Positions 7,934-48,941 of a DNA stretch of 64,000 nt are shown here, in pieces; position 1 is the stretch's first letter, and every line of letters starts with the position of its first letter. A program made the translations under genes and the position numbers. The notes below the pieces were generated by a model. The model was not told the DNA's origin, ran no database searches, and was given only the letters and a program-made list of their open reading frames with translations. Source of the DNA: Candidatus Nomurabacteria bacterium (GTDB lineage: Bacteria > Patescibacteriota > Minisyncoccia > Phycocordibacterales > UBA2100); assembly GCA_943359395.1 (NCBI GenBank), contig CALRHH010000001.1:20121-84120 (forward strand), read 5' to 3'.

Positions 7934-8011
7934 TTGTTTTCTATGTCACATATCACACATCACCCGCATATCACTCCGCCTTCCAGAACAACCACGGCTC
8001 ACTCTCGGCAT

Positions 8012-10575: not shown

Positions 10576-12011
10576 AGGTTGGGAGAAAAAAGGATATTCT
10601 TGAACTGCCACGGGTCTTTCTTGTCGACGTCTTCGACGAAAAGGTTCTGACGGTCTTTGAGCGGAGTCCAATCAGTGTAGCTGCCTGTCATGGTTCCGAG
10701 ATACGGCTCCATGACTTCCATGATGCGTTCGTAGTCCATTTCGTCAGCTTCGACGACTCCCTCATTCGGGTTCTCTATCGTCCACACCATCGCGCCCAAG
10801 ACGCCGACCGTCACCTGCAAGCCCGTCGCGTTCTGATACGGAGCAAGCTTTCGTGTCTCTTCGATGGTCAACTGCGAGCCGTACCAGTACGCGCCTTTCT
10901 TGTGCCCCATGAGAAGCACTCCGAGCTCGTCCATGCCGGTCTTGATGTCGTCCATGAGTATATATTGCTCCTTCTGAAGCTGCGAATTATTGCCGAAGCA
11001 CTCCTCAATAGAGAGAATGGATGCATCGCACGAACGATACGCGTAGTGCACGGTTGGGCGAAAGACCGCCTTTTTGCCCTTGCGGACGGTGTAATAATCC
11101 GCGATAGAAACGGATTCGTTGTGCGTGACGGCACGGCCGAGGAACGGTCCGTGCTTAGGCGTCCAAGTGCGCACCAAGGTCTTTGCACCCGGCTGGTCGA
11201 GGTAGATGGCGGCGTCGCAGCCATGCGGATGCCGGTGTCCGTTTTTGGGGAAGTACTTCTCATGCGTGCCCCAACCCATTTCACATGGCTGACAGATGCC
11301 TTCGGAATGGAAGCCGACGACGGACCACGTATTCTCGAAACGGCCTACCTTTTTCGGCTTGTCGGATACCTGAGAGTCGTACTCCGCGATGTGAACAGTT
11401 TTCACGCCAAGCTTGCTCATGAGGCCGGCCCACTCCTCGCGAGTCTGCGGCTTTTTGGCTTTGACGCCCGTATCGCGGGCGATATGCATAAGGGCTCGCT
11501 TCAAGAAGTGCGAAACGATGCCAGGATTCGCGCCGTGTGTGGAAACTGCCGTCGGTCCCTTGCCGAATTTTTTCTTCGTCGCGAGCATGGTCTCACGCAG
11601 ACCGTAGTTGGAGCGCTGTGTAGTAGAGAGCTTGGGATCGGTGTATCCGCCAAGCCACGGCTCCACGACGGTGTCGAGATACAGTATGTCGCGTTTGTTG
11701 CAGTACTCCATGAGCGCCACAGACGAGACGTCTACCGAGAGGTTCAAAAGGAAGTCTCCCTTGTCGAGATATTTGTCGAGGACTTTCTTGTAGTTGCCCC
11801 GCTTGAGCGGCTCTATTAAAAAAGGGATGCCTTCGATGCGCGCGACATCGCGGCCGAGTTCATCCGCCGTGATGATGCGGATATTCTTTCTGTCCATTCC
11901 GATATGACGCAAGATGAGAGGGAGTACACCCTGTCCGATAGAGCCGAAACCAACGATGAGCAACTTGCCACCAAACTGTACGTGAACGGAATATTTACTT
12001 TTTTTCTTCAT
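10572..12011 (-). CDS. hss: homospermidine synthase (bacterial type, EC 2.5.1.44)
   Basis: 479 aa. N-terminal Rossmann motif (IVGFGSIGQG) plus NLSVDVSS, DTVVEPW, NATGLQV and a C-terminal DPWQF. These are the motifs I recall for bacterial homospermidine synthases. The assignment is from memory of the family and was not searched. Confidence 0.7.
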   Translation of the reverse strand: MKKKSKYSVHVQFGGKLLIVGFGSIGQGVLPLILRHIGMDRKNIRIITADELGRDVARIEGIPFLIEPLKRGNYKKVLDKYLDKGDFLLNLSVDVSSVALMEYCNKRDILYLDTVVEPWLGGYTDPKLSTTQRSNYGLRETMLATKKKFGKGPTAVSTHGANPGIVSHFLKRALMHIARDTGVKAKKPQTREEWAGLMSKLGVKTVHIAEYDSQVSDKPKKVGRFENTWSVVGFHSEGICQPCEMGWGTHEKYFPKNGHRHPHGCDAAIYLDQPGAKTLVRTWTPKHGPFLGRAVTHNESVSIADYYTVRKGKKAVFRPTVHYAYRSCDASILSIEECFGNNSQLQKEQYILMDDIKTGMDELGVLLMGHKKGAYWYGSQLTIEETRKLAPYQNATGLQVTVGVLGAMVWTIENPNEGVVEADEMDYERIMEVMEPYLGTMTGSYTDWTPLKDRQNLFVEDVDKKDPWQFKNILFSPNL

Positions 12012-32838: not shown

Positions 32839-33930
32839 CTATATATCCAGATACCCCTTCTTGAAGGCTAGTTCTGCATTCAAAATCCCTCCTCCCGCAG
32901 CGCCGCGGACAGTATTGTGCGAGAGTGCGACAAAGCGATAGTCGAGCACGGGGCATTCGCGTAGACGCCCGGCAATAACGGCCATTCCCTTGTCGGTGTC
33001 GCGGTCGCGCTTGGGCTGCGGCCGGTCGTCCTCATTACGATAGTGGATGGGCTGTTTCGGTGCGAACGGCAAGTCGAGCTTCTGCGGCTCTCCGCGAAAC
33101 GACTTCCAGATATTGAGAATTGTGTCACGCCGCGGTTTCTTCTTGCCGAATTCAAGCGAGATGATAGCTGTGTGACCGTCGGAAACCGGTACCCGTGTGC
33201 ATGTCGCGGAGATGTTGATACCCTCCCAAGGAATAATCTGGCCACCCTTTACGTGCCCCAATATCTTGTAGGGCTCGGATTGTGTTTTCTCCTCTTCGCC
33301 TCCAATGTATGGAATGACATTGTCGATGACGTCCCAGCTCGATACGCCAGGGTATCCCGCGCCTGAAACAGCCTGCATCGTAGTCACGACAATGCGCTTG
33401 ATATCGTAGCCTTTTTGTAACAATGCGTGGATGGGAGCGATATAGCTCTGGATACTGCAATTCGGCTTCACCACAATGAATCCTTTTTTCCAGCCACGCG
33501 CTTTTTGCTGTTGCGGGATGATGTCGAGATGGTGTGCATTTATCTCGGGAATAAGCATCGGTACGTCTTCTGTCCCGCGATGGGCGGACGCATTTGAGAA
33601 GACAGGTATGTCGGCGGCCGCATACACTTCTTCCAATTTTCGTATCATGTCTTTATCTGGCATTTCAAAGGCCGAAAAGACAAACGCACATTCCGCTTTT
33701 GCCCGCTCCACATCCGCGACATCCTGAACAACGAGCTTAGCGACGTCGGACGGTATTTCTCCTGCCACTATCCACCCGCTCCTGAGTGCGTCTTTATACT
33801 TCTTTCCCGCTGACTGCGGCGAAGCCGCGACGTACGCGACTCGGAACCACGGGTGATCCGCCAGCAGGTGAACATATTGCTGACCGACCATACCGGTCGC
33901 ACCCAATATTCCCACGGGGATTTCCTTCAT
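32839..33930 (-). CDS. asd: aspartate-semialdehyde dehydrogenase
   Basis: N-terminal NAD(P)-binding motif [12 protein letters not shown], a catalytic Cys region and the ASD dimerisation domain. It lies downstream of lysC on the same strand. Confidence 0.9.
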
Positions 33931-33939
33931 ATTGATACG

Positions 33940-35307
33940 TTACGCCTCAATGTACTCTTTGTGAAGGACTTTGAGTGCCTTTTCGGCGTCGCGTGTATTC
34001 ACAACAAACGTCATGCTTACTCCTGAAGAGGCCTGCGATATCATCTCCACGGCAATCTTGTTTTGCCCGAGTACCGTAAACATTCTTCCCGCGACGCCGG
34101 CCGCGTTCACGCCGCCTCCGACCGCACAAATGATGGCTTTGCCGCGGTCTACCGATACATCACCGAGTTCCCGCAAAGCCTTGGTAATCTTCGGAAGGTT
34201 CTTCTCGTCATCGATAGTGACCGATACGCTCGTTACCGATGTCGCAACGACGTCGATACTTGTTCGGTGTGCGTTGAATATCTCGAATATGCGTGCGATA
34301 AAACCACTTCCGTCGTAAAACTTGGGGGAATTGACATGTACCGCAATGACGGGGCTTTTGAACGTGAGCGCATCGACAGTGTGACTCTCTTTGCGGCGTT
34401 GCGCAAAATTCGGGACGATGGTCGTACCAGAATCATCTGGCTTGAACGTGTTGAGTACCTTAACGGGAATACTCTTGCGCATGGCCGGCAATATGGTTTT
34501 CGGATGGAGCACCTTCGCGCCGAAATACGCAAGCTCGCCGGCTTCCTCAAATGAAAGTTCTGGGACCACTTGTGCTTCCGGTACACGACGCGGATCGGCC
34601 GTCATGATGCCGGATACGTCCGTCCATATTTCGATTGCTTTTGCGCCCAACGCAGAGCCCACGATGGCTGCACTGTAATCGCTCCCGCCGCGACCAAGCG
34701 TCGTCGTCTTTCCGTCTGGAGTCGCGCCGATGAATCCTGTGACAATCTGTAAAGGGGTGTGCTTCTTGAAATGCGCGCGAATACTCTTCTCCGTGCTGAC
34801 AAAATCGACGGCGGCAGATTCAAATTGTTCGTCGGTTGTAATGACGCGTCGCGCATTCAGGTACTCACATCGCACGCGACGATGCAGAAGTGCTCCCGTA
34901 AGGATATGTCCCGACAGCCGTTCTCCGAAGCTCATGATATAGGCCATACCCGCAGGTGAAAGTTCTTGTAAACGATACGTCCCTTCCACAATGCTCTCTA
35001 GCTGACGGAAGAGATCATCGACTAACGCCAGCGTTTTTGCGCGATACCGAGAACCTACGAGCTCACGTGCGACCTCAATGTGCCGGCGCTCGAGATTCTT
35101 GAGAACTACCCTGTACTTTGGTTCTTTGGTACTTGCCAGCTTGGCGATTTTGATAAGGTCATTGGTAACTCCAGACATCGCGGAAACGATGATTGCTACA
35201 ATCCGCGCGTCTTGTCGAGGTCTCTTGATAATAGCAATGACTTTTTGTATCGCGTCCGCCGACCCCATGGACGTTCCGCCGAATTTCAGTACTTTTATCC
35301 GTTTCAT
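33940..35307 (-). CDS. lysC: aspartate kinase
   Basis: VLKFGGTSMGSADAI, which is the amino-acid kinase family N-terminus, plus two C-terminal ACT domains. The six-frame ORF extends 3 codons further to 35316. Confidence 0.9.
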   Translation of the reverse strand: MKRIKVLKFGGTSMGSADAIQKVIAIIKRPRQDARIVAIIVSAMSGVTNDLIKIAKLASTKEPKYRVVLKNLERRHIEVARELVGSRYRAKTLALVDDLFRQLESIVEGTYRLQELSPAGMAYIMSFGERLSGHILTGALLHRRVRCEYLNARRVITTDEQFESAAVDFVSTEKSIRAHFKKHTPLQIVTGFIGATPDGKTTTLGRGGSDYSAAIVGSALGAKAIEIWTDVSGIMTADPRRVPEAQVVPELSFEEAGELAYFGAKVLHPKTILPAMRKSIPVKVLNTFKPDDSGTTIVPNFAQRRKESHTVDALTFKSPVIAVHVNSPKFYDGSGFIARIFEIFNAHRTSIDVVATSVTSVSVTIDDEKNLPKITKALRELGDVSVDRGKAIICAVGGGVNAAGVAGRMFTVLGQNKIAVEMISQASSGVSMTFVVNTRDAEKALKVLHKEYIEA

Positions 35308-35399
35308 TCGTCGCACGCTACCACACGCACATCAACACGTCAAAAATCGAAAGGTGTTCCGCCGGCCTTTTTTCAAGGTCTTTCGCACGCTCTATGATT

Positions 35400-35432
35400 T
35401 AAAAAAAATGCCCCGACATCACATCGGGGCGA
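35400..35432 (-). terminator. rho-independent terminator on the minus strand (GCCCCGA-tgtgatg-TCGGGGCA-TTTTTTTT) after the small minus-strand gene
   Basis: 7-bp GC stem plus an A8 run on the plus strand, which is U8 on the minus strand. It lies between ORF 35465-35731 and the lysC promoter region. Confidence 0.7.
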
Positions 35433-35464
35433 GGCTTGGGCCTCTATAATATGCCTCGCCCGAC

Positions 35465-35731
35465 TTAATTTGCGGTGAGGGTTTTTTTGGAAGTCGTCGA
35501 ATGCGATTCATCGACGAGTTCGGTAAGCAGCTCGATGACGGCGGTGGTGGAGTTGGTAAAGGACCCACCCCGCTGGCCATTTTCGAGGTCGATTCGATAC
35601 ATCGCTCCGGGCTTGCCCTTCGCGAATATCGCATCGAGTTCGCGGCGTACCTGCCGTAGGTACTCTCCCGCGTTTACGTCACTCGGAGGCAGGATTTTGA
35701 TGTTTCCTTCCTCCACGCGCAGATACTGCAT
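35465..35731 (-). CDS. hypothetical small protein (88 aa)
   Basis: No recognisable domain. Last gene of a three-gene minus-strand unit ending at the terminator above. Confidence 0.35.
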   Translation of the reverse strand: MQYLRVEEGNIKILPPSDVNAGEYLRQVRRELDAIFAKGKPGAMYRIDLENGQRGGSFTNSTTAVIELLTELVDESHSTTSKKTLTAN

Positions 35732-35753
35732 GGTCGTTCTCCCTTGATTGGGC

Positions 35754-35933
35754 CTATTCCCAGCGCAGAAACTGGATGTTTGGCCCGCCGCAACTGTGAC
35801 AGCTCGTGGGCTTAATCTCGCACACGAACTCCTTCCCGTTACACGGATGCGGGATGCATCCGTAAACCATCTTCGGCTTTGGTTTCGAGCCGTTGTCCGC
35901 CGCTTTCGCGACGTCAGGAGTGGTTATAAGCAT
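35754..35933 (-). CDS. hypothetical small Cys-rich protein (59 aa; MLITTPDVAKAADNGSKPKPKMVYGCIPHPCNGKEFVCEIKPTSCHSCGGPNIQFLRWE)
   Basis: Internal ATG of a longer six-frame ORF whose 5' part overlaps the upstream gene. A GGAGA Shine-Dalgarno lies 7 nt upstream. Five Cys sit in a zinc-ribbon-like spacing. Confidence 0.35.
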   Translation of the reverse strand: MLITTPDVAKAADNGSKPKPKMVYGCIPHPCNGKEFVCEIKPTSCHSCGGPNIQFLRWE

Positions 35934-36072
35934 GGCTTTCTCCCTATGGGGGTGCAGATGCTCACCTGAGCATTTCCCCCGAGGCAGTATGAACTTCCCA
36001 GATTCTGTATGCAAGCAAAAGCCCTCCACCCCTTGCCACGATATATGGGTTGGGGAGGAGGACTTAGCAACG

Positions 36073-36552
36073 CTACGGAACAAGGAAGACGCAGCCTTTA
36101 GCCCATGAGTGCGAGCGGCCGAAGGGGCCGGACTCGATGTGGAGTCCGCCCTGCGTCCATCCGGCATGAACGCCATAGAGCTTGCCTTCTACCAGTACAT
36201 AGCAGGTATACCAACGCGCGCGGTCAGCACGCGTAAGATGGTACCAGTACTGGCCGAAGGTGATGTTGACCTTATCCCGCCCACCGAGCTCGTCAACAAT
36301 TCCTGGTTGGTTGACGTAGCGCGAGCGTATAGGAAGGTCACAGCCTTCGATACCGAGCACGTGCTCGTAGAGAGTCGTTTCAAGCGTCGGCCCTTCGCGC
36401 GCATGTAGCACATGCTCGCGGAAGTGTTTGCCGGCCCAGACGATCATTACGCCGTCCACCATTTCACCGGGTCGGATAACAGTGTCTACGGTGAACGCAT
36501 CGAGCGGCGGGATATTCGCAGGCGTGCGATTATCAAGGAACATTTTGGTCAT
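36073..36552 (-). CDS. hypothetical protein (160 aa)
   Basis: No domain recognised. The six-frame ORF extends to 36618; the internal ATG (MTKMFLD) at 36552 is preferred. Confidence 0.45.
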   Translation of the reverse strand: MTKMFLDNRTPANIPPLDAFTVDTVIRPGEMVDGVMIVWAGKHFREHVLHAREGPTLETTLYEHVLGIEGCDLPIRSRYVNQPGIVDELGGRDKVNITFGQYWYHLTRADRARWYTCYVLVEGKLYGVHAGWTQGGLHIESGPFGRSHSWAKGCVFLVP

Positions 36553-36640
36553 GTCGAACCTCTCTGTTTCAGCTGCATTGAACCTGGATATATAAGCACA
36601 TACGCGACTGGCATGCAAAATACGTCAGCCGTGGGCTATA

Positions 36641-37876
36641 ATGCTCGGAATGATAAAAACTGTGCCTTTCTCCAAGGATGAGCTTGAGAAGTTGCTTCGC
36701 CTGCACCCCACCCCTCTGTACATATACGATGAGCAGGGTATACGACAAACAGCACAACGTCTTCTGAAAGCGTTTTCGTGGTCGCCGGAATTCAAGGAGT
36801 ACTTCGCGGTGAAAGCAACGCCGAATCATCACATACTTTCTATACTCAAAGACGAGGGTTGTGGCGCCGATTGCAGTTCTTTAGCGGAACTACTTCTCGC
36901 AGAGCGAATCGGCCTATCGAAAGAAGACGTCATGTTCACCTCGAATGACACGCCCGCGGGTGAATACATAAAGGCAAAAGCGCTTGGAGCAATAATCAAT
37001 CTCGACGCATTTGAGGATATCGCTTTTCTCGAGGAGCATGCGGGTCTGCCTGAGATGTTGTCATTCCGATATAACCCGGGCCCAGTACGCGACGGCAACG
37101 TCATCATCGGAAAACCCGAAGAAGCGAAATTCGGCATGACGCACGGCCAGCTCATTGAAGCGTATCGTGTCGCGAGCGCAAAGGGCGTCAAGCGCTTCGG
37201 TCTCCACACCATGGTCGCGTCGAACGAGCGGCAGGTAGAGTATTTCGTGGAGACTGCGCGGATGCTCTTCGATATCGTACGGGAAGTGCGCGACGAACTT
37301 GGCATTACGATTGAGCTCGTAAATTTCGGCGGCGGCATCGGAATTCCGTACAGGCCGGAAGATAAGGAGGTGGACATCGAGGCGCTCGCCATGAGCGTGA
37401 AAAATCTCTACGAGTCATACCAACTCGCCCCTCTCAAACTCGCGATGGAGTGCGGACGCTACATTACAGGGCCACACGGATACCTGGTATCCCGCGTCCG
37501 GCATCTCAAGGAAACATACCGGAAATACGTCGGTCTTGACGCGACGATGGCGAATCTCATGCGGCCCGGCATGTATGGCGCCTATCACCACATCACGGTT
37601 CTCGGCAAGGAGAATGCCCCGACCGACGAGATATACGATGTCGTCGGCTCTCTCTGCGAGAACAACGACAAATTCGCCATAGAGCGGAAGCTGCCTCACA
37701 TGGAGTTGGATGACGTCATTGTCATTCACGATGCGGGCGCACATGGACACGCGATGGGATTCAACTACAACGGGAAACTCCGCTCGGCAGAATTTCTTAT
37801 GAAGCCTGACCAGAGCTTTACCATGATTCGCCGTGCGGAGACGATGGAAGACCTGTTTGCTACCTTGGTGGATTGA
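36641..37876 (+). CDS. lysA: diaminopimelate decarboxylase
   Basis: Fold-III PLP decarboxylase (Orn/DAP/Arg decarboxylase family 2): YFAVKATPNHHIL with the PLP-binding Lys and a C-terminal beta-barrel domain. A TATAAT -10 box lies just upstream of the ATG. Confidence 0.9.
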   Translation: MLGMIKTVPFSKDELEKLLRLHPTPLYIYDEQGIRQTAQRLLKAFSWSPEFKEYFAVKATPNHHILSILKDEGCGADCSSLAELLLAERIGLSKEDVMFTSNDTPAGEYIKAKALGAIINLDAFEDIAFLEEHAGLPEMLSFRYNPGPVRDGNVIIGKPEEAKFGMTHGQLIEAYRVASAKGVKRFGLHTMVASNERQVEYFVETARMLFDIVREVRDELGITIELVNFGGGIGIPYRPEDKEVDIEALAMSVKNLYESYQLAPLKLAMECGRYITGPHGYLVSRVRHLKETYRKYVGLDATMANLMRPGMYGAYHHITVLGKENAPTDEIYDVVGSLCENNDKFAIERKLPHMELDDVIVIHDAGAHGHAMGFNYNGKLRSAEFLMKPDQSFTMIRRAETMEDLFATLVD

Positions 37877-37937
37877 TTCACTCTTGATAAGATGGCGTTA
37901 TGCTACCGAGAGCAGCAAACGTATAATCCGAAAGAAT

Positions 37938-38702
37938 ATGAATATCGCACTCATAGGGTATGGCGGAATGGGACACTCGCTCGCGAGTGCTGCAGGGACG
38001 CGTGGACATCGTATAGTGGCCATCATAGACCGTAGTGCGCCCGAGGCATCTGCGAAGTCTCTCGATGCCCAATCCCTCGCCGATGCCGATGTCGCTATTG
38101 ACTTTTCAAGCCCTGCGGAGGTGATGACCTCAGTGCAATCGTGTGTCGAAGCGGGTATCCCACTCGTCGTCGGCACGACGGGATGGTACGATCGGGTAGA
38201 CGAAGTCCGTCAAGTCGTAGAAGCGGCTCCGGACTCGAGACGCATCGGTTTTTTATGGTCGTCGAACTTTTCTGTTGGCGTTCACATGTATTTTCGCATC
38301 ATCGCGGAGGCGGCGCGCCTCGTAAACAGACTCGATGAATACGACATTTGGGGACACGAGATACACCATGCGGGCAAGGCGGACAGCCCTTCAGGTACGG
38401 CAAAGACACTCGAGAAGATACTGCTCGACGCCGTCCACCGCAAGGAGTCCGTTGTGGAGGAGAGACTCAACCGTAAGCGTGCGGATTCGGAAATACATTT
38501 CTCCTCGGTACGCGGAGGTGCGGTAAATTTTGGGCATACCGTTGGCTTCGATTCTGCGGCAGACAGAATTCTTATTACTCATGAAGCGCGGAACCGTGAC
38601 GGCTACGCGCAAGGCGCAATAAAAGCGGCGGAATGGCTTGTGGGAAAAACCGGCTTCTATAGTATGGATGAATACATACGCGATATTTTCCCCGCATCAT
38701 AA
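37938..38702 (+). CDS. dapB: 4-hydroxy-tetrahydrodipicolinate reductase
   Basis: MNIALIGYGGMG Rossmann N-terminus, DFSSPAEV, and HHAGKADSPSGTA, which matches the DapB EHHxxKxDxPSGTA motif. The six-frame ORF begins at 37833, overlapping the lysA end. Confidence 0.85.
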   Translation: MNIALIGYGGMGHSLASAAGTRGHRIVAIIDRSAPEASAKSLDAQSLADADVAIDFSSPAEVMTSVQSCVEAGIPLVVGTTGWYDRVDEVRQVVEAAPDSRRIGFLWSSNFSVGVHMYFRIIAEAARLVNRLDEYDIWGHEIHHAGKADSPSGTAKTLEKILLDAVHRKESVVEERLNRKRADSEIHFSSVRGGAVNFGHTVGFDSAADRILITHEARNRDGYAQGAIKAAEWLVGKTGFYSMDEYIRDIFPAS

Positions 38703-38716
38703 ATTTCTAAATCAAT

Positions 38717-39613
38717 ATGACTACAAAGAAATACGCAGGCACGTGGACAGCACTCATCACTCCATTCAAAAAAGACGGGGGGTTGGATGAAGCGGCCTTA
38801 CGAATACTGGTGCGCAGGCAGATTGAGGGTGGCGTAACTGGTATCGTTCCCATCGGTACAACGGGGGAATCGCCGACGACACTTGCAGCAGAAGACCGAC
38901 GAGCCATCGAGATTGTGGTAGAAGAGGCGGCCGGCAAGGTTCAGGTCATGGCGGGTACTGGGAGCAATAGCACCCGAGAAGCCGTGACGTACACCAAAGC
39001 GGCAAAAGAAGTTGGCGCAGGCTCATGTCTTGTCGTCGCTCCGTATTACAACAAACCGACGCCCGACGGGCTAAAACTACACTACGCGGCAATTGCTGAT
39101 GTCGGTCTTCCTGTCATTGTTTACAACATCAAGGGCCGAACGGGCATCAACATAGATACTGACACGCTCATGGAAATGGCACAGAACCCGATGATAGTAG
39201 GAGTGAAAGAAGCAAGCGGAGACATTGCCCAGATGAAAGATGTGCTCGCGCGAAGACCCGACGATTTTACCGTGCTGTGCGGTGACGACGCCATGACCCT
39301 CGACTTGATGCGGGCGGGTGGAGACGGTGTTATCTCGGTTGCGTCCAACATCGTACCCCGTGAGGTATCCACCTTAGTGCGTCATGCGGCGGCGGGCGAA
39401 TGGGATGAAGCGGAAAAAGTCAACGAGCATCTGGCGGACATGTTCAAAAAACTATTCATCGAATCCAACCCCATCCCGGTGAAATACTGTGCGGCGCGTA
39501 TGGGTACTTGCGAGCTTGTCTACCGTCTTCCTCTGTGTCCGCCAACCGCCACGTCGCAGACAGTTCTCGACACTCTGCTGAAAGACTACGGATTGCTCAA
39601 AGACACCACGTAA
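38717..39613 (+). CDS. dapA: 4-hydroxy-tetrahydrodipicolinate synthase
   Basis: GTWTALITPF, GTTGESPTL and a Schiff-base Lys in the IVYNIKGRTG context, all typical of DapA. Confidence 0.9.
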   Translation: MTTKKYAGTWTALITPFKKDGGLDEAALRILVRRQIEGGVTGIVPIGTTGESPTTLAAEDRRAIEIVVEEAAGKVQVMAGTGSNSTREAVTYTKAAKEVGAGSCLVVAPYYNKPTPDGLKLHYAAIADVGLPVIVYNIKGRTGINIDTDTLMEMAQNPMIVGVKEASGDIAQMKDVLARRPDDFTVLCGDDAMTLDLMRAGGDGVISVASNIVPREVSTLVRHAAAGEWDEAEKVNEHLADMFKKLFIESNPIPVKYCAARMGTCELVYRLPLCPPTATSQTVLDTLLKDYGLLKDTT

Positions 39614-39621
39614 TTCTTCTC

Positions 39622-40797
39622 ATGGATATCAACCCGTCGAAAAGACTGGCGTCATTGCCTCCGTACGCGTTTGCGGAGATAGACAAAAAGGTGGAAGCTC
39701 TCCGAGCACAGGGCGTTACCCCTATTGATTTCGGCGTGGGCGACCCGACAGAACCGACGCCGGACTATGTAGCGGAGTGCCTTACACCATCGGCCCGTGC
39801 ACATGCGGTGAGCGGATATCCGAACTATAACGGAAGCAAGAAATTCCGCTCCGCCGCGGCCGATTATATGCTTCGCAGGTTCGGAGTGACGCTCAATCCA
39901 GAAACAGAGATTTCTTCGAACGCAGGTTCGAAGGAGGCTATTTTTAACTTTCCCGAGGCCATTCTGGAACCAGCTGATACGGTACTCTGTCCCTCTCCGG
40001 GATATCCACCGATGAAAACAGGCACCATCTTTGCCGAGAGCCAACCCTATTTCGTCCCTCTTCTTGAGAAAAACGGATTTCTTATCGACTACGCCGCCAT
40101 TCCCAAGGACATCGCACAACGCGCAAAGATGATTTGGCTGAACTACCCGAATTCTCCCACGGGTGCCGTAGCCTCGCGCGAGTATTACAAAGGACTTGTC
40201 GAGTGGGCTCACCGCAATAACATCATCATTGCGGCGGATGAAGGCTGCTATATTGATATTTACTTCGACGACAAACCACCCTCTATTCTTGAGGTGGACC
40301 GCGAAGGCATCGTCGCTTTTTATTCCTTGTCCAAACGCAACAACATGACCGGCTATCGCGTCGGCTTCGTGTGCGGCGACGAGAAACTCGTAAATATTTA
40401 CAAGCGCTTGAAGACGAATGTCGATTCAGGCGTCCCAAATATTATTCAGGATGCGGCTATCGTCGCACTTGCCGATGATGCGCACGTCGAAAGTATGCGC
40501 CGTCTCTACAAAGAAAAACGGGATATTCTGCTTCCTGCACTTCGTTCTATCGGACTCTCAACGACAGAAGCGGGAGCCACCTTCTATGTATGGCAGAAGG
40601 TCCCTGGAAGCGACGTCGAGTTTGCAAAGAAACTCCTCGATCCTTCCATTGGCATCGTCGTGACACCGGGCAGTCTGATTTCGGATGTATGTGAAGGAGG
40701 TTTGAATCCGGGAGAGGGGTACGTGCGCTTTGCCTTAGTTCCGTCTCTAGAACAAGTCCGAGAAGCCGCAAAAAGGTTGCTTTCACTGCGATCGTAA
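39622..40797 (+). CDS. dapL: class I/II aminotransferase, probable LL-diaminopimelate aminotransferase
   Basis: Fold-type I aminotransferase (NYPNSPTG, SLSKRNNMTGYRVGF with the PLP Lys). It sits in an asd-lysC/lysA-dapB-dapA cluster with no dapD or dapE, which fits the DapL route. The specific assignment rests on context. Confidence 0.65.
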   Translation: MDINPSKRLASLPPYAFAEIDKKVEALRAQGVTPIDFGVGDPTEPTPDYVAECLTPSARAHAVSGYPNYNGSKKFRSAAADYMLRRFGVTLNPETEISSNAGSKEAIFNFPEAILEPADTVLCPSPGYPPMKTGTIFAESQPYFVPLLEKNGFLIDYAAIPKDIAQRAKMIWLNYPNSPTGAVASREYYKGLVEWAHRNNIIIAADEGCYIDIYFDDKPPSILEVDREGIVAFYSLSKRNNMTGYRVGFVCGDEKLVNIYKRLKTNVDSGVPNIIQDAAIVALADDAHVESMRRLYKEKRDILLPALRSIGLSTTEAGATFYVWQKVPGSDVEFAKKLLDPSIGIVVTPGSLISDVCEGGLNPGEGYVRFALVPSLEQVREAAKRLLSLRS

Positions 40798-43950: not shown

Positions 43951-44514
43951 ATGCACAATGAAACCTCAGCGCGCGCGGAAGCGTTCCTCTTTAGTGAAGG
44001 AGGGATGCTTACCTTACACAAACTGGCTCAATTACTCGAGGTAGATGAGCCGCAGTTGCGGGAGGCGCTCCAGACACTTTCGGAGCGCCTGGAAGGCACG
44101 GGCCTGACACTTATCCGGACGGAGACCGAGGTCTCGCTCGCGGTGGCAAAGGAAACTTCCTCAGCAGTTCAACGGGCGTACGAGCGGGAGCTGGGACACG
44201 AAATAGGGGATGCGGGCCTAGAGGTTTTAGCAGTTGTCCTCTATAGAGGTCCCTCGACTCGTGCGCAAATCGATTATATTCGTGGTGTAAATACAAGCTC
44301 GAGTATCCGTAATCTTCTCGCACGCGGGCTCCTTGAACGCACGGGCAATCCTGAAGACGGACGTGAATACCTATACCGTCCGACTGTCGAGCTCCTCTCT
44401 CACCTCGGCGTGCGTGACGTTACAGAACTTCCGAATTACGCCGAGATAGTTGCGGAACTTAGAGCTTTCGAATCACAGCCTACCGAGTCCTCTTCAGAAA
44501 ATACGCAGGTATGA
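43951..44514 (+). CDS. scpB: segregation and condensation protein B
   Basis: Tandem winged-helix ScpB domains (AEAFLFSEGGMLTLHKLAQLL...LEVLAVVLYRGPSTRAQIDYIRGV). Confidence 0.85.
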   Translation: MHNETSARAEAFLFSEGGMLTLHKLAQLLEVDEPQLREALQTLSERLEGTGLTLIRTETEVSLAVAKETSSAVQRAYERELGHEIGDAGLEVLAVVLYRGPSTRAQIDYIRGVNTSSSIRNLLARGLLERTGNPEDGREYLYRPTVELLSHLGVRDVTELPNYAEIVAELRAFESQPTESSSENTQV

Positions 44515-45566
44515 CGGACGGACCATTGGCTCAAGATGAAATTTCTTACACCGGAGACGCGCGACAGCAGGAGCCTGTTTCTCCGCTCGTACTTTTGCCT
44601 GAGCGCACAGGCGGACACCGTCTCTCGACACAATACCTTTCGGGTGTCGCCACACTCGCGCTCATCTTTTTCGCGAGTGCGTTCGTAACAGTGGCATTTC
44701 TCTCCTCTTACGATGAGCTCAACGTGGGCGTTCCTCAAACCGCTTCTGCGGCGGCCTCATTGGAAAATCCCTTCGACTCAATATCACTTATGGCTGAGGG
44801 GGCTTACGTGCTCGACCTCACGACGAATCGCGTTCTTTATTCGAAAAACCCAGACTCGCGGCTGCCTCTCGCCTCTCTCGTCAAAGTGCCGCTCGTCCTC
44901 GCGGTCTCCGAAGCGTTTCCCTCCGGTACGTCCATAACGATACCTTCACACGTACCGCCCGATGGCGCGGGAATTCGTCTCCCGGCAGGGATGCAATTCG
45001 CAGCACAAGACATCATCGCCTTCACTCTCGTTGCGTCCTCAAACGAAGGAGCCGCTATTCTCTCTAACGCGGCGGGGGAAGCTCTTCATAAAAAGTATCC
45101 GTCGTCGACAGAAGGCGCTGCTGTCTTGTGGCGTATGAACGACATCGCACAAAACCTCGGCCTGAGTACGGTGACCTTTCTCAACACCAATGGCCTTGAC
45201 TTGAGCGACACTGAAGCGAGCGCCTTCGGCTCTGCGCACGATGTAGCACTTCTCTTTGGGTATGCCGCATCGACTGCCCCCGCCTCTTTTGGGCAAACCT
45301 CTCGCACGAGTATCAAGATACGGGCAACAACGGGAGAAACGGTGACGGCAACAAATACCGACGAAGCATTACCGGCGATACCGGGCATCGTCATGGGAAA
45401 AACGGGCTTCACAAGACTTGCGGGAGGAAACCTCGCCGTAGTATTTGAGGTGGGACCAACCCGTCCGGTCGTTGCAGTCGTACTGAATTCAACGCAGGAC
45501 GGCCGTTTTGACGACATGAAAAAGCTCGTAACAGCTACGGTGGAATCCATCTCAACGGGCCAGTAA
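44511..45566 (+). CDS. dacA: D-alanyl-D-alanine carboxypeptidase (serine-type, peptidase S11/PBP5-like)
   Basis: SxxK (ASLVK), SxN (SSNEGA) and KTG (GKTGFT) motifs after an N-terminal membrane anchor. Confidence 0.8.
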   Translation: MTDGPLAQDEISYTGDARQQEPVSPLVLLPERTGGHRLSTQYLSGVATLALIFFASAFVTVAFLSSYDELNVGVPQTASAAASLENPFDSISLMAEGAYVLDLTTNRVLYSKNPDSRLPLASLVKVPLVLAVSEAFPSGTSITIPSHVPPDGAGIRLPAGMQFAAQDIIAFTLVASSNEGAAILSNAAGEALHKKYPSSTEGAAVLWRMNDIAQNLGLSTVTFLNTNGLDLSDTEASAFGSAHDVALLFGYAASTAPASFGQTSRTSIKIRATTGETVTATNTDEALPAIPGIVMGKTGFTRLAGGNLAVVFEVGPTRPVVAVVLNSTQDGRFDDMKKLVTATVESISTGQ

Positions 45567-45602: not shown

Positions 45603-46667
45603 ATGATTCCGCCGCTTGTTCACGTACTCCTTCCTGCGGCGATAGCATTCCTCGTGGGGATGGCAATCACACCACTGATTTCTCACTACTTATACGCGTT
45701 CAAGGCGTGGAAAAAACGTCCCGGTAAACTCGCGCTCAACGGAGAATCTGCGCACGAATTCAACCGGCTTCATGGCCTGAATGAGGTACGCGCGCCCCGC
45801 ATGGGAGGCATGGTCGTGTGGGGAAGCGTCCTCCTTACTATTTTAGGTCTCTCCGCACTGACACGCATTTTTCCGGCGCTGACTAGTCTAGACTTCTTGA
45901 GTCGTAATCAGACGTGGCTGCCATTCGCGACACTTATGACAGGTGCCTTAGTTGGACTCGTCGATGACCTTATGGTTATTCGGGAGAGTGCTGAGGGTTT
46001 ACGTCTACGTCACCGCATCGTTATTGTCGTGGCGTTGTCCTCTTTCATAGGATGGTGGTTCTGGGAAAAACTTTCCATAACTGCCGTCAATATCCCATAT
46101 ACCGTCCCGCTTGAAATAGGTTGGCTCATCATTCCTCTATTTGTCATAGTATCGCTCGCCCTGTACGCTTCAGGCGTCATTGACGGCATTGACGGACTCT
46201 CAGGTGGAGTATTCGCCTCAATTTTTGCCTCTTACACCATCATCGCATTTTCGCAGAACCAAGTAGACCTCGCAGCATTTACCGCCTGCATTATGGGAGG
46301 ACTCCTCGCGTTTTTGTGGTTCAATATTCCTCCTGCGCGATTTTACATGAGCGACACGGGCACCATGGCATTAACCTTGACCATCGGTACCGTTGCGTTC
46401 ATGACTGACAGTCTCGGGGGTGGTGTTGGCATATTCGTATTACCTATCATCGGAGGTCTTCTCGTTGTGACTGTTTTGTCTGACATAGCACAAGTCATCT
46501 CAAAAAGATTCTTCGGCCGCAAGCTCTTGCGCATTGCGCCACTGCACCACCACTTTGAAGCCATCGGTTGGCCGGGACAGAAAGTTGTTATGCGGTATTG
46601 GGTGCTCTCCGTTGCATGTGCGTTCGCGGGCGTCATCCTTGCGCTCTCTGCATTACCCATACAATGA
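45603..46667 (+). CDS. mraY: phospho-N-acetylmuramoyl-pentapeptide transferase
   Basis: Ten predicted TM helices with MraY motifs (GLVDDLMVI, NAVNIPYT...IDGIDGL, HHHFE). Confidence 0.9.
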   Translation: MIPPLVHVLLPAAIAFLVGMAITPLISHYLYAFKAWKKRPGKLALNGESAHEFNRLHGLNEVRAPRMGGMVVWGSVLLTILGLSALTRIFPALTSLDFLSRNQTWLPFATLMTGALVGLVDDLMVIRESAEGLRLRHRIVIVVALSSFIGWWFWEKLSITAVNIPYTVPLEIGWLIIPLFVIVSLALYASGVIDGIDGLSGGVFASIFASYTIIAFSQNQVDLAAFTACIMGGLLAFLWFNIPPARFYMSDTGTMALTLTIGTVAFMTDSLGGGVGIFVLPIIGGLLVVTVLSDIAQVISKRFFGRKLLRIAPLHHHFEAIGWPGQKVVMRYWVLSVACAFAGVILALSALPIQ

Positions 46668-47758
46668 GGCAGCGCATCGACAAACCCCTCGCCTTTCTCA
46701 TCGCGTCCCTCGTTTTGGGAGGCGCCATGATATTCGTATCGGCAGCTTTCGGCGTTCTCGGCCGCGGATTTTCGGGAATCACCTCTGTTGCATTCAGTCA
46801 TCTGGTGTTGGGGGTGGGAGGCGGATGTATCTTGCTCCTCATAACCCTTAATTTCAATTACCGTCACTGGCGAAAATTTGCACCCTATATCTTCGCACTC
46901 GCTCTTGTGGGCATGCTCCTTGTTTTCATTCCCAACCTCGGCTTTGCACATGGTGGGGGACAGCGATGGATTGTCATATTTGGCGTCTCATTTCAACCTT
47001 CTGAGTTCTTAAAGATTGCCGCCATTCTCATCGCGGCGGCGTATTATTCGACCATTCGCGCAAAAGTCGAAAGTTTTTTATGGGGTGTCGGCGGCCTCGT
47101 TGTCATACTTGCCGCGCCCATCGTTCTCCTCGTCATGCAACCAGATATCGGTACGCTTGGCATCATCTGTATCACCGTATTTGGCGTCTTCTTCGCCGCC
47201 GGTGCGCGTGTCCGCGATATCGCGATACTGCTGTGCATTGCTTTGCTCTCGCTCGGTATACTTGTGTACGAAAAGCCCCACGTGAGAGATCGTGTCCTCA
47301 CATTCTTTAACCCCGCCGAAAACCAGTTGGCGGAAGGGTACCAAATATCTCAATCTCTCATGGCGATAGGCTCAGGTCAGGTCTTCGGGCGCGGTTACGG
47401 CCAAAGCATCCAGAAATTCACATACCTGCCGGAGCCCATGGGGGATTCCGTATTTGCCGTAGCGGGGGAGGAGCTTGGATTCGTTGGTTCGACAGTCATC
47501 GTCCTCATGTTCTTAGCCCTTGCCTTACGCGGGTATGTAGTCGCTGCCCGTACAACAGACCTTTTCGGGGGACTGCTTGCGGTAGGAATCTCGACCTACT
47601 TGGCTGGAGAGGCATTTATCAACATTGCGGCGATGCTCGGCCTCGCACCGCTGACAGGGGTGCCTCTCACATTCGTGAGCCAAGGGGGAAGTGCGATGCT
47701 CATATCACTCGCAAGCGCAGGCATTTTGCTTAACATTTCCCGATCCCGCCGCGTATAA
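46664..47758 (+). CDS. ftsW: SEDS family peptidoglycan glycosyltransferase FtsW/RodA
   Basis: Ten predicted TM helices and conserved SEDS motifs (IGSGQVFGRGYGQS, SQGGSAML). Start overlaps the mraY stop (ATGA). The six-frame ORF begins earlier at 46568. Confidence 0.85.
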   Translation: MRQRIDKPLAFLIASLVLGGAMIFVSAAFGVLGRGFSGITSVAFSHLVLGVGGGCILLLITLNFNYRHWRKFAPYIFALALVGMLLVFIPNLGFAHGGGQRWIVIFGVSFQPSEFLKIAAILIAAAYYSTIRAKVESFLWGVGGLVVILAAPIVLLVMQPDIGTLGIICITVFGVFFAAGARVRDIAILLCIALLSLGILVYEKPHVRDRVLTFFNPAENQLAEGYQISQSLMAIGSGQVFGRGYGQSIQKFTYLPEPMGDSVFAVAGEELGFVGSTVIVLMFLALALRGYVVAARTTDLFGGLLAVGISTYLAGEAFINIAAMLGLAPLTGVPLTFVSQGGSAMLISLASAGILLNISRSRRV

Positions 47759-47798
47759 CTCTTTTTGTGATTGCGCAAGAGGACGATAGAATGGGGCG

Positions 47799-48941
47799 AT
47801 GCGTATCGTATTGGCCGGTGGTGGAACAGGCGGACATTTTTATCCGCTCATCGCGGTGGCAGAGGCCATTGAAGACGTGTGCCTGGAGCGCACCCTCATC
47901 GAACCTGACCTCTACTACATCGGCCCGCCAGCATTCGATGCCGAAGCGCTCCTTGAGCATGACATTACATATCTCCCAAGCACTGCGGGAAAAGTTCGCA
48001 GATACAGGAGCATTCTGAATGTGCTAAGCGTCTTTACCAACGGCATCGGCATCATACGATCTACCCTCCAACTCTTCCGCCTCTACCCCGATGCAGTTTT
48101 CTCGACTGGCGGATACGCAGCATTCCCGACGCTCTTTGCGGCACGACTCCTTCAAATCCCCGTGATAATTTATGATGCCGATGCGTCGCCGGGACGCGTC
48201 TCTCTCTGGTCATCAAAATTCGCGCAGTGGATAGCCGTTGCACATCCGACAGCCGCCGCGAAATTCCCTCCGAAAGTACGGGACAGAATCGCTGCAGTAG
48301 GGCATCCTGTCCGCAAAGAAATAATTCAGCCTTCGAAAGAGGGTGGGCACGAATTCCTCAAGCTTGATTCCTCAGTCCCTACGGTATTCGTGATGGGTGG
48401 CTCTCAAGGCGCACGCTCTATCAACGAAGTCATTCTCGATGCGCTTCCTTTACTCCTTTCGGAATTCAACGTCGTACACCAAGTCGGTGCGGCAAACCTC
48501 ACAGAGATCAGCGGTATTACCTCAGTGATTCTCAAAAACTCCCGTTATGCAGAACGCTACAAGATTTTTGGACTTCTTAATACCCTTGCGCTGCGCATGG
48601 CCGCTGGTATCACAACGGTAATCGTAGCCCGTGCGGGCTCGGGCACTATCTTTGAGATAGCCAACTGGGGACTACCGTCAATACTCGTCCCGATACCCGA
48701 GGACGTCTCTCACGACCAGACCGAGAATGCATTCTCTTATGCCCGCTCAGGCGCGGCTGTCGTCATAGAACAGCGCAACCTCTCGCCTCACCTTCTCCTC
48801 GCCGAAATTCAGCGCGTAGTCGGAGATTCGGCTTTGCGTTCGAAAATGTCCGAAGCTGCACGGACATTCGCACGCCCCGATGCGGCACGGAAGATTGCAC
48901 TCTCACTCCTTGAGACCGCTATCGAGCATGAACCCGTATGA
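47799..48941 (+). CDS. murG: UDP-N-acetylglucosamine--N-acetylmuramyl-(pentapeptide) pyrophosphoryl-undecaprenol N-acetylglucosamine transferase
   Basis: MRIVLAGGGTGGHFYPLIAV N-terminus and the C-terminal GT-B domain (GGSQGARSIN). Confidence 0.9.
   Translation: MRIVLAGGGTGGHFYPLIAVAEAIEDVCLERTLIEPDLYYIGPPAFDAEALLEHDITYLPSTAGKVRRYRSILNVLSVFTNGIGIIRSTLQLFRLYPDAVFSTGGYAAFPTLFAARLLQIPVIIYDADASPGRVSLWSSKFAQWIAVAHPTAAAKFPPKVRDRIAAVGHPVRKEIIQPSKEGGHEFLKLDSSVPTVFVMGGSQGARSINEVILDALPLLLSEFNVVHQVGAANLTEISGITSVILKNSRYAERYKIFGLLNTLALRMAAGITTVIVARAGSGTIFEIANWGLPSILVPIPEDVSHDQTENAFSYARSGAAVVIEQRNLSPHLLLAEIQRVVGDSALRSKMSEAARTFARPDAARKIALSLLETAIEHEPV

What the first reader, a model, noticed from the sequence alone, without database searches (positions are those of the whole stretch)
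32839..40797. Complete DapL-type lysine biosynthesis cluster interrupted by a three-gene insert of unknown function
asd and lysC (minus strand) and lysA, dapB, dapA and a class I aminotransferase best explained as dapL (plus strand) form a divergent cluster. It would encode nearly the whole aminotransferase route from aspartate to lysine; only dapF is not in the window. Between lysC and lysA sits a minus-strand unit of three small ORFs (160 aa; a 59-aa Cys-rich protein with an upstream Shine-Dalgarno; 88 aa) with its own strong terminator at 35400-35432. None has a recognisable domain. The Cys-rich peptide has zinc-ribbon-like cysteine spacing and ends in ...FLRWE. Their insertion inside a biosynthetic cluster suggests a regulatory or accessory role tied to lysine/DAP metabolism.
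Basis: partly seen in the sequence, partly recalled or inferred. Interest (0 to 1): 0.5.

Follow-up and report, generated by a model that had tools for sequence, protein, structure and literature searches.

The report
Lysine genes flanking a frozen hypervariable-protein relative
A Patescibacteria (CPR) genome carries a real lysine-synthesis gene cluster, but the three small genes inside it are separate transcription units, and the largest is a no-longer-diversifying relative of proteins that a retroelement (a DGR) hypermutates in related bacteria, so nothing beyond position ties the three to lysine.

Summary
Between lysC and lysA lie ORFs of 159, 59 and 88 aa, followed by a strong terminator. 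All three are conserved in related Patescibacteria contigs and are under purifying selection (dN/dS 0.17-0.57).

The interpretation that they serve lysine/DAP metabolism is not supported.
- ORF A belongs to a ~150-aa family with no Pfam model (116 representatives).
- Other members of that family are targets of diversity-generating retroelements. Their 3' variable repeats pair with template repeats, the mismatches fall at template adenines, and an Avd gene and a reverse transcriptase follow.
- The window's ORF A has no template repeat, RT or Avd within 64 kb. Its variable-site residues are nearly invariant among relatives, so its binding site is frozen.
- Conserved promoter-like motifs and hairpin terminators split the region into A | B-C | lysC-asd.
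- lysC appears leaderless. No riboswitch was found.
- ORF B, a zinc-ribbon protein, is missing in one close relative, and its C-terminus is not conserved.
- Family members elsewhere sit in unrelated contexts.

The functions of B and C remain unknown. dapF is not in the window.

The parts
32839..33930 (-). asd, aspartate-semialdehyde dehydrogenase (363 aa)
   Evidence: NF006416 at 460 bits and TIGR00978 at 382 bits, both above cutoff. Pfam Semialdhyde_dh and Semialdhyde_dhC.
33940..35307 (-). lysC, monofunctional aspartokinase with C-terminal ACT domains. The probable start is the ATG at 35307 (MKRIKVLKFGG); the mechanical ORF runs on to a GTG at 35316.
   Evidence: AA_kinase E 3.7e-48 and ACT_9. 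TIGR00657 at 383 bits, above cutoff. The start is inferred from the conserved promoter geometry.
35315..35343 (-). Promoter-like element for lysC-asd: TTGACG (35343-35338), a 17-nt spacer, TAGCGT (35320-35315), then 7 nt to the ATG. This implies a leaderless or near-leaderless lysC mRNA with no room for a riboswitch.
   Evidence: The motif TTTTTGACG...TGGTAgcGTGCG is conserved in window, L004, L006, L009 and L011. No Rfam hit. This is inference from sequence; no transcript data.
35401..35462 (-). Tandem-hairpin intrinsic terminator ending the B-C unit. Hairpin alpha pairs 35461-35453 with 35435-35427. Hairpin beta pairs 35430-35424 with 35416-35410. A T8 run follows at 35408-35401.
   Evidence: Terminator scan, sequence and conservation in L004, L006, L009 and L035. 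L011 has an equivalent hairpin followed by a T-run.
35465..35731 (-). ORF C, an 88-aa protein of unknown fold. Conserved motifs are ILPP, YLRxV, G.RGG.F and ELLTELVDAS. It always lies immediately upstream of the lysC promoter.
   Evidence: 14 homologue clusters, all Patescibacteria or unclassified metagenome. Alignments A3 and A5. dN/dS 0.33-0.57. No Pfam or PDB sequence hit.
35754..35933 (-). ORF B, a 59-aa zinc-ribbon-like protein. It has a Lys/Pro-rich N-terminal tail and the core motif C-x2-H-P-C-N-G...F-x-C-E...P-T-S-C-H-x-C-G-G. The C-terminus is variable.
   Evidence: 10 homologue clusters. H29, C31, C45 and C48 are invariant, and C26 nearly so. dN/dS 0.17-0.54. Only scattered weak single-member hits to Zn-ribbon Pfam families. 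Absent in L035-L037.
35948..35980 (-). Hairpin 2 in the 5' UTR of B-C (GGGGG-AAATGCTC...GAGCAT-CTGCA-CCCCC), immediately 5' of the Shine-Dalgarno GGGAGA.
   Evidence: Folding and alignment. Conserved in window, L007, L008, L009 and L035. L004 and L006 have a different hairpin at the same place. Function not established.
35986..36014 (-). Promoter-like element for B-C: TTGCAT (36014-36009), a 17-nt spacer, CATACT (35991-35986).
   Evidence: TTGC(A/G)(T/C)-17-CATACT is conserved in all six aligned relatives and in L035. Inference from sequence only.
36016..36063 (-). Hairpin 1, a compound stem-loop with a 10-bp outer stem and a 4-bp inner stem. It begins about 10 nt after the ORF A stop codon and is followed by TTTTG. 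Probable terminator of the ORF A transcript.
   Evidence: RNAalifold consensus with compensatory changes at 3 of this hairpin's stem pairs (4 of 25 pairs across the whole spacer). A hairpin with a T-run lies at the same place in L011. Active DGR target genes of the family have a compound hairpin of the same architecture followed by TTTTGTTATAC.
36073..36552 (-). ORF A, 159 aa. A non-diversifying member of a Patescibacteria DGR variable-protein family. The C-terminal approximately 36 residues correspond to the variable repeat of active members.
36590..36618 (-). Promoter-like element for ORF A: TTGCAT (36618-36613), a 17-nt spacer, TTATAT (36595-36590). It lies in the 88-nt divergent region shared with lysA.
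   Evidence: TTGCA...GTGCTTATAT is conserved in six relatives. Inference from sequence only.
36641..37876 (+). lysA, diaminopimelate decarboxylase (411 aa). A possible leaderless start lies at 36650.
   Evidence: TIGR01048 at 299.6 bits against a cutoff of 297.9. Pfam Orn_Arg_deC_N and Orn_DAP_Arg_deC.
37938..38702 (+). dapB, 4-hydroxy-tetrahydrodipicolinate reductase (254 aa)
   Evidence: TIGR00036 at 141.7 bits against a cutoff of 122. The called gene is 254 aa.
38717..39613 (+). dapA, 4-hydroxy-tetrahydrodipicolinate synthase (298 aa)
   Evidence: TIGR00674 at 317.7 bits against a cutoff of 206.
39622..40797 (+). Class I aminotransferase, the probable LL-diaminopimelate aminotransferase (DapL-like, 391 aa).
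   Evidence: Best NCBIfam hits are PRK09276 (419.5 bits) and TIGR03540 (400.1 bits), both below the cutoffs of 507 and 593. The succinyl-DAP transaminase model is next. The closest solved chains are unnamed aminotransferases. The assignment rests on similarity ranking plus position after dapA.

Best explanation
The region holds two different things side by side.

(1) A divergent lysine/DAP cluster in a Patescibacteria genome: asd-lysC on one strand and lysA-dapB-dapA-dapL-like on the other. It is expressed from its own promoters. lysC, and possibly lysA, appear to be leaderless, and no riboswitch is present.

(2) Lodged in the divergent intergenic space are two independent small transcription units that are not part of the pathway.
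- Unit one is ORF A. It is a cytoplasmic ligand-binding protein of about 150 aa, weakly C-type-lectin-like, from a family whose other members are the variable (target) proteins of Patescibacteria diversity-generating retroelements.
- In this lineage ORF A has no template repeat, Avd or reverse transcriptase nearby. The residues that are hypermutated in active members are fixed. It therefore acts as a 'frozen' binder of one particular, still unknown, ligand.
- Unit two is the bicistron ORF B (zinc ribbon with a basic tail, dispensable in one relative) plus ORF C (88 aa). It has its own promoter, a structured 5' UTR and a strong terminator.

Shown: gene identities; family membership of ORF A; DGR association of the family; absence of DGR parts from this window; fixation of the variable sites; purifying selection; conservation of gene order.

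Inferred: the promoters, terminators and leaderless starts (sequence conservation only); cytoplasmic location (no signal or TM segment seen by eye); and that adjacency to the lysine genes is historical rather than functional.
For: Lysine genes.

Organism: a Patescibacteria MAG contig shows the same arrangement, as do other contigs.

ORF A family: 116 representatives, with no Pfam model for any of 63 members.

DGR association of the family:
- L016/L023: VR 6519-6627 against TR 6944-7052, 109 nt, 19 mismatches, all at TR adenines.
- L031: 19 of 19 mismatches at TR adenines. L024 and L025 show the same bias across the aligned repeat (22 of 28 and 13 of 22 mismatches at TR adenines).
- RVT_1 reverse transcriptases (E 1e-22 to 1e-23) and a bAvd-like protein just under the Pfam cutoff (39.8 vs 40 bits, E 7e-10) lie directly downstream.

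Frozen state:
- No TR-like repeat of the ORF A 3' end in the 64-kb window or in relatives' loci.
- No RT or Avd remnants by tblastn, and none in the Pfam-scanned ORFs.
- Most of the TR-Asn positions are invariant (6 of 9; at most 2 residue types) among seven ORF A-clade sequences that are 58-88% identical to the window's ORF A. The rest of the family shows 11-16 residue types at these positions.

Separate transcription units: conserved -35/-10 motifs with 17-nt spacers before A, B-C and lysC, and conserved hairpins with T-runs after A and after C.

Looser constraint than the pathway genes: dN/dS is 0.17-0.57 for the trio against 0.03-0.10 for lysA and lysC.

Module not fixed: ORF B is cleanly absent in L035-L037.

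Family not tied to lysine genes elsewhere; one exception.
Against: - The order A-(B)-C-lysC-asd is kept even in a relative whose ORF C is only 45% identical.
- A 38%-identical ORF A homologue lies beside a dapL-like gene in another contig. A functional link to lysine genes is therefore not excluded.
- All relatives with the full arrangement are fairly close and share flanking genes such as trpS, aspS and scpAB, so synteny is weak evidence either way.
- Promoters, terminators and leaderless starts are predictions only.
- Only 64 kb of the genome was seen, so a distant DGR cannot be ruled out from sequence presence alone.
- B and C have no assigned function.
Confidence: 0.6

Rival explanations
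1. The three genes are an accessory or regulatory module for lysine/DAP synthesis. For example, ORF A could be a small-molecule sensor with a fixed pocket for lysine or DAP. ORF B could be a zinc-ribbon nucleic-acid binder, and ORF C a partner of aspartokinase. Together they would stand in for the missing lysine riboswitch.
For: - Adjacency to lysC-asd and lysA is conserved in every contig that carries them, including a distant one.
- An ORF A homologue lies next to a dapL-like gene in L015.
- No riboswitch is present and lysC has no leader, so regulation must come from proteins or from allostery.
- The fixed His/Arg-rich binding surface of ORF A suggests one defined ligand.
Against: - The units have separate promoters and terminators.
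- Other ORF A-clade proteins sit between an M23 peptidase gene and grpE-dnaK, or after nusA, with no lysine genes and no B or C.
- B is lost in one lineage.
- The three genes evolve 3-10 times faster than the pathway genes.
- No shared operator-like motif was evident by eye in the two promoter-region alignments, apart from ordinary -35/-10 boxes.
Confidence: 0.2
2. B-C, with or without A, is a small selfish or conflict module such as a toxin-antitoxin-like pair or a phage-defence accessory. It would have inserted into a permissive divergent intergenic region.
For: - It is a compact bicistron with a 22-nt gap and its own promoter and terminator.
- It is lineage-restricted, with only 10-14 clusters among 5.8 billion proteins.
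- Selection is relaxed.
- Gene content varies and the locus looks mosaic: in L035, ORF A is close to the window's, while ORF C and lysC are of the L009 type.
Against: - No PADLOC or PHROG hit.
- No Pfam toxin or antitoxin family.
- The position is stable across relatives rather than patchy.
- No mobility genes nearby.
Confidence: 0.1
3. ORF A is still an active DGR target, diversified in trans by a DGR elsewhere in the genome.
For: - Its family members are DGR targets.
- A compound hairpin follows its stop codon, as in active targets.
- Only 64 kb of the genome was available.
Against: - The sites that vary in active members are nearly invariant across seven diverged orthologues.
- dN/dS is 0.22-0.31 over the whole gene.
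- No TR, RT or Avd in the window or in the 17-19 kb loci of relatives.
Confidence: 0.04
4. One or more of the small proteins replaces the missing DapF (diaminopimelate epimerase).
For: dapF was not found among the window ORFs scanned, and the pathway needs an epimerase between DapL and LysA. The pathway logic is established knowledge.
Against: - ORF A is a lectin-like binder from a DGR target family. It has no conserved Cys pair of the kind used by PLP-independent racemases, which is established knowledge.
- B is dispensable.
- dapF may simply lie elsewhere in the genome.
Confidence: 0.02

Closest known systems
DGR variable (target) proteins with a C-type-lectin-fold variable region, for example Bordetella phage Mtd and Treponema denticola TvpA, and the Patescibacteria-restricted DGR clade 2 targets of Roux et al. 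2021 (PMC8144416)
   Same: ORF A is a sequence homologue (E down to 1e-20 to 1e-31 in a profile search) of proteins with a C-terminal VR. In those proteins the VR is paired with a TR by adenine-specific mismatches, and Avd and RT follow. Like other CPR targets, ORF A has no recognisable domain or membrane segment. Its model resembles C-type lectin/FGE folds, including TvpA, more than anything else. A compound hairpin follows its stop codon, as in active targets.
DapL (LL-diaminopimelate aminotransferase) variant of the diaminopimelate/lysine pathway
   Same: lysC, asd, dapA, dapB, an aminotransferase closest to DapL models, and lysA are all present and clustered.
   Different: The aminotransferase scores below the curated DapL cutoffs. 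dapF is not in the window. One relative (L004) has no aminotransferase after dapA and instead carries an unknown 297-aa gene and an Amidohydro_3 gene.
LysW / amino-group carrier proteins (zinc-ribbon proteins whose C-terminal Glu carries the substrate in the alpha-aminoadipate lysine route; own knowledge)
   Same: ORF B is a small Cys-rich zinc-ribbon-like protein next to lysine genes. In the window it ends in ...WE.
   Different: The C-terminal residue is not conserved: E, D, L or Q in relatives. The protein has a basic rather than acidic tail. There is no Pfam LysW zinc-ribbon hit. The pathway here is DAP, not alpha-aminoadipate. B is absent in a close relative.
Lysine riboswitch (L box, RF00168)
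   Same: A regulatory element commonly found upstream of lysC, dapA or lysA in bacteria.
   Different: No match at gathering score or at E<=10. The conserved lysC promoter leaves only about 7 nt before the ATG.

Membership tests
DGR variable (target) protein | Homology to proteins that carry a variable repeat matched by a template repeat | tested here: met
   Profile search and alignment A4. Family members P0039 (L016/L023) and the L024, L025/26 and L031/32 proteins have VR/TR pairs.
DGR variable (target) protein | Own VR with a cognate TR nearby, with mismatches at TR adenines | tested here: not met
   No repeat of the ORF A 3' 150-260 nt anywhere in the 64-kb window or in relatives' loci.
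DGR variable (target) protein | DGR reverse transcriptase (and usually Avd) in the vicinity | tested here: not met
   No RVT_1 in the Pfam-scanned window ORFs. tblastn with family-associated RT and Avd found nothing in the window or in relatives. The rest of the genome was not available.
DGR variable (target) protein | Hypervariability at AAY-templated positions | tested here: not met
   These positions show 1-2 residue types in seven ORF A-clade sequences, against 11-16 types in the rest of the family.
DGR variable (target) protein | C-type-lectin fold of the VR-bearing domain | tested here: inconclusive
DapL-type lysine pathway | lysC, asd, dapA, dapB and lysA present | tested here: met
   Equivalog or subfamily models above cutoff for asd, dapA, dapB and lysA, and an aspartokinase subfamily-domain model above cutoff.
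DapL-type lysine pathway | Aminotransferase is an LL-DAP aminotransferase | tested here: inconclusive
   The best-ranked models are DapL (PRK09276 at 419.5 bits, TIGR03540 at 400.1 bits), but both are below the cutoffs of 507 and 593. The DapC succinyl-type model is next at 355 bits, also below its cutoff of 453.6.
DapL-type lysine pathway | DapF epimerase present; dapD and dapE absent | not testable with these tools
   None was found among about 50 window ORFs scanned.
Lysine riboswitch | Match to RF00168 upstream of a lysine gene | tested here: not met
LysW-type amino-group carrier protein | Conserved C-terminal Glu on an acidic tail after a zinc ribbon | tested here: not met
   C-termini are E, D, E, L, L, L and Q across homologues. 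No Pfam hit.
Zinc-ribbon small protein (generic) | Two conserved pairs of Cys/His ligands | tested here: met
   C26 (H in one sequence), H29, C31, C45 and C48 are invariant or nearly so. Metal binding itself was not tested.

The most novel reading that the evidence does not exclude
A DGR variable protein has been domesticated. After losing its retroelement, its once-hypervariable C-type-lectin-like pocket was fixed on a single cytoplasmic ligend, possibly lysine, DAP or aspartokinase itself. The protein would now serve, perhaps with the zinc-ribbon ORF B and ORF C, as a sensor or regulator of the only amino-acid pathway this reduced Patescibacteria genome retains. That would be a route from hypermutation cassette to housekeeping regulator.
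Probability: 0.1. Interest if true: 0.7.

Novelty: new variant of a known kind. Interest (0 to 1): 0.35.

Why it matters
- It turns an 'unknown three-gene insert' into something more specific. One gene is a retroelement-free, sequence-fixed descendant of the Patescibacteria DGR target family, a family with no Pfam model and no known ligand.
- Fixed orthologues offer a tractable way to find out what these otherwise hypervariable CPR proteins bind.
- A clustered DAP/lysine pathway exists in a lineage generally regarded as biosynthetically poor (own knowledge). It seems to run from leaderless mRNAs without a riboswitch.
- It is a caution against inferring function from position inside a biosynthetic cluster.

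Tried and rejected
- LysW-like carrier protein for ORF B: rejected. The C-terminus is not conserved and there is no profile hit.
- Lysine riboswitch, T-box or other Rfam element: none found.
- DapF replacement: no support.
- Active DGR in the window: no TR, RT or Avd.
- Defence or phage families for A, B and C: no PADLOC or PHROG hits.
- First AF2 run of ORF A with 7 sequences: unusable, pLDDT 44. The 63-sequence alignment fixed this.
- PDB sequence searches with profiles of A, B and C: chance-level only.
- Foldseek against PDB and BFVD: nothing significant. The AFDB library was not available.
A 5-sequence alignment worked.
- The 140-aa reading of ORF B (from 36176) was rejected. Conservation, the Shine-Dalgarno sequence and the promoter point to the 59-aa start. 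The upstream frame is closed in L004 and L006.

Full report
**What is at the coordinates.** The ORF list and profile scans confirm the cluster.
- asd, 32839-33930(-).
- lysC, 33940-35316(-).
- lysA, 36641-37876(+).
- dapB, about 37938-38702(+).
- dapA, 38717-39613(+).
- A class I aminotransferase, about 39622-40797(+).

asd, dapA, dapB and lysA pass curated NCBIfam cutoffs, and lysC passes the aspartokinase subfamily model. The aminotransferase ranks LL-DAP aminotransferase models first (PRK09276 at 419.5 bits, TIGR03540 at 400.1 bits). It stays below their cutoffs of 507 and 593, so 'DapL' is the best reading but is not proven. Its closest solved chains are unnamed aminotransferases.

Between lysC and lysA lie three minus-strand ORFs, each with a Shine-Dalgarno sequence.
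- ORF A, 36073-36552, 159 aa.
- ORF B, 35754-35933, 59 aa.
- ORF C, 35465-35731, 88 aa.

A strong terminator follows at 35410-35430 with a T8 run. None of the three hits Pfam, NCBIfam, PHROGs or PADLOC. No Rfam family, including the lysine riboswitch, matches.

**Organism and conservation.** The same gene order, lysA<- ->A,B,C,lysC,asd, recurs in independent metagenomic contigs. It also occurs in a MAG contig titled Patescibacteria group bacterium.
- ORF A has 6 close homologue clusters at 58-88% identity.
- ORF C has 14 homologue clusters and ORF B has 10.
- A more distant relative (L010/L011, ORF C 45% identical) still shows A(partial)-B-C-lysC-asd.
- dN/dS against five relatives is 0.22-0.31 for A, 0.17-0.54 for B and 0.33-0.57 for C. 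For lysA and lysC it is 0.03-0.10.

All three are therefore real genes, but they are much less constrained than the pathway genes.

**What ORF A is.** An exhaustive profile search found 116 representatives at E<=1e-3. Most are 150-220 aa, and many carry an N-terminal extension of about 60 aa. None of 63 aligned members matches any Pfam family.

The decisive clue came from a family member's locus, L016. Downstream of the gene lies a 109-nt copy of its 3' end that differs at 19 positions, all of them adenines in the downstream copy. That is the signature of a template repeat/variable repeat pair of a diversity-generating retroelement.

A metagenome scan gave more examples.
- L031/L032: 19 of 19 mismatches at TR adenines.
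- L024 and L025/L026: most mismatches at TR adenines.

These loci also carry an RVT_1 reverse transcriptase (E about 1e-23) and a bAvd-like protein just under the Pfam cutoff (39.8 vs 40 bits) immediately downstream. This fits the literature. Roux et al. 2021 (PMC8144416) describe a Patescibacteria-restricted DGR clade whose targets lack recognisable domains and probably carry novel C-Lec variants.

**ORF A is not being diversified.**
- No TR-like copy of its 3' end exists in the 64-kb window or in the loci of relatives.
- tblastn with the family-associated RT and Avd finds nothing.
- No scanned ORF is an RT.
- Most of the positions templated by Asn codons in an active TR are invariant (6 of 9; the rest show 2 residue types) across seven ORF A-clade sequences that are 58-88% identical to the window's ORF A. 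The residues there are H129, G131, T133, H138, G142, R146, H/Y148, A151 and C/S154. The rest of the family shows 11-16 residue types at these positions.

ORF A is therefore a 'frozen' member of a DGR target family.

**Transcription architecture (predicted).** Alignments of the intergenic regions show three conserved sigma-70-like promoters with 17-nt spacers.
- Before ORF A: TTGCAT/TTATAT, 36618-36590.
- Before ORF B: TTGCAT/CATACT, 36014-35986.
- Before lysC: TTGACG/TAGCGT, 35343-35315.

The lysC promoter leaves only 7 nt before the ATG at 35307. That implies a leaderless lysC message and no room for a riboswitch.

A compound hairpin with some compensatory changes, followed by TTTTG, lies 10 nt after the ORF A stop codon. 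Active DGR target genes of the family carry a hairpin of the same architecture. A tandem hairpin plus T-run follows ORF C. The likely units are therefore A | B-C | lysC-asd, not one operon.

**ORF B and ORF C.** ORF B has an invariant core, H-P-C-N-G...F-x-C-E...P-T-S-C-H-x-C-G-G, with five conserved Cys/His, consistent with a zinc ribbon. Its C-terminal residues vary among E, D, L and Q. That removes the resemblance to LysW-type carrier proteins. In L035-L037 ORF B is cleanly missing, and hairpin 2 and the Shine-Dalgarno sequence lead directly into ORF C. ORF C has no detectable relatives outside this clade and no PDB or Pfam similarity.

**Is the trio linked to lysine metabolism?**

For a link:
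- Adjacency persists, including in the distant L010/L011.
- A 38%-identical ORF A homologue lies convergent with a dapL-like gene (73% identical to the window's) in L015.

Against a link:
- The transcription units are separate.
- The trio evolves fast.
- B has been lost in one lineage.
- Other ORF A-clade genes lie between an M23 peptidase gene and grpE-dnaK (L019-L022) or after nusA (L016), without B, C or lysine genes.

I judge the link historical rather than functional, at about 0.6 to 0.2, and I keep the regulatory reading as the novel case.

**Verdict.** The pathway reading is largely right, although DapL is unproven and dapF was not found. The 'accessory to lysine metabolism' reading is unsupported. 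The new result is the identity of ORF A as a retroelement-free, fixed member of a Patescibacteria DGR variable-protein family.

Noticed in passing
window 35305-35343 (-): lysC seems to be leaderless. A conserved TTGACG-17-TAGCGT promoter ends 7 nt before the ATG at 35307. Public gene calls for this contig start lysC further in (442 aa) and so cut off the conserved KFGGTS N-terminus.
   Followed up: partly
window 36630-36652 (+): TATAAT overlaps the annotated lysA ATG at 36641, and a second in-frame ATG lies 7 nt after that hexamer, at 36650. lysA may also be leaderless and start at Met4. Some relatives annotate a form 7 aa longer instead.
   Followed up: no
L035 940-1090 (also L036, L037): A close relative lacks ORF B entirely. 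Its ORF A is very close to the window's, while its ORF C and lysC region are of the L009 type. This suggests recombination within the trio.
   Followed up: partly
L004 4091-6594: In this relative the aminotransferase after dapA is replaced by an unknown 297-aa gene (no Pfam hit) and a 503-aa Amidohydro_3 protein. A class I LysRS and a second class II aaRS gene (tRNA-synt_2, probably Asp/Asn type) follow asd. This may be a different way of closing the DAP pathway.
   Followed up: no
L012/L013/L014 11797-14970 and L035 2884-6057: Some relatives carry an extra 1057-aa aspartokinase / homoserine dehydrogenase fusion between lysC and asd. In L012, dapA is split into two ORFs, by a frameshift or an assembly error.
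   Followed up: no
window 10572-12011 (-): A 479-aa saccharopine-dehydrogenase-family protein (Sacchrp_dh_NADP plus the C-terminal domain) lies 21 kb from the lysine cluster. It could act in polyamine or lysine-related metabolism.
   Followed up: no
window 58919-62302 (-): The leucyl-tRNA synthetase is 1127 aa and appears to carry inserted NUDIX and alpha/beta-hydrolase-like segments.
   Followed up: no
window 7934-8827 (+): A protein combines an ATP-cone with an Mrr_cat restriction-endonuclease domain.
   Followed up: no
L020 3617-4511 (also L021, L022): A stretch of about 900 nt with no called gene follows the ORF A-clade gene P0033, before grpE. No TR-like repeat of the gene's 3' end was found. 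It could be a decayed DGR or a structured RNA.
   Followed up: partly
L016 6519-7423; L024 5815-8278; L032 6001-8266: These are complete Patescibacteria DGR cassettes. The order is target gene, compound hairpin, a spacer of about 300 nt, TR, an Avd-like gene on the opposite strand overlapping or adjoining the TR (seen in L016 and L032), and RT. The target family has no Pfam model.
   Followed up: yes
window 35754-36176 (-): The frame of ORF B stays open upstream through the spacer and into the 3' end of ORF A, giving a 140-aa ORF. Similar long frames occur in L007, L008 and L009 but are closed in L004 and L006. This is probably a by-product of the GC-rich hairpins and of ORF A coding constraint.
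   Followed up: partly
window 45603-48941 (+) and 44511-45566 (+): mraY-like, ftsW and murG genes and a D-Ala-D-Ala carboxypeptidase gene lie just downstream. The organism therefore makes peptidoglycan, which gives a use for DAP or lysine beyond protein synthesis.
   Followed up: no
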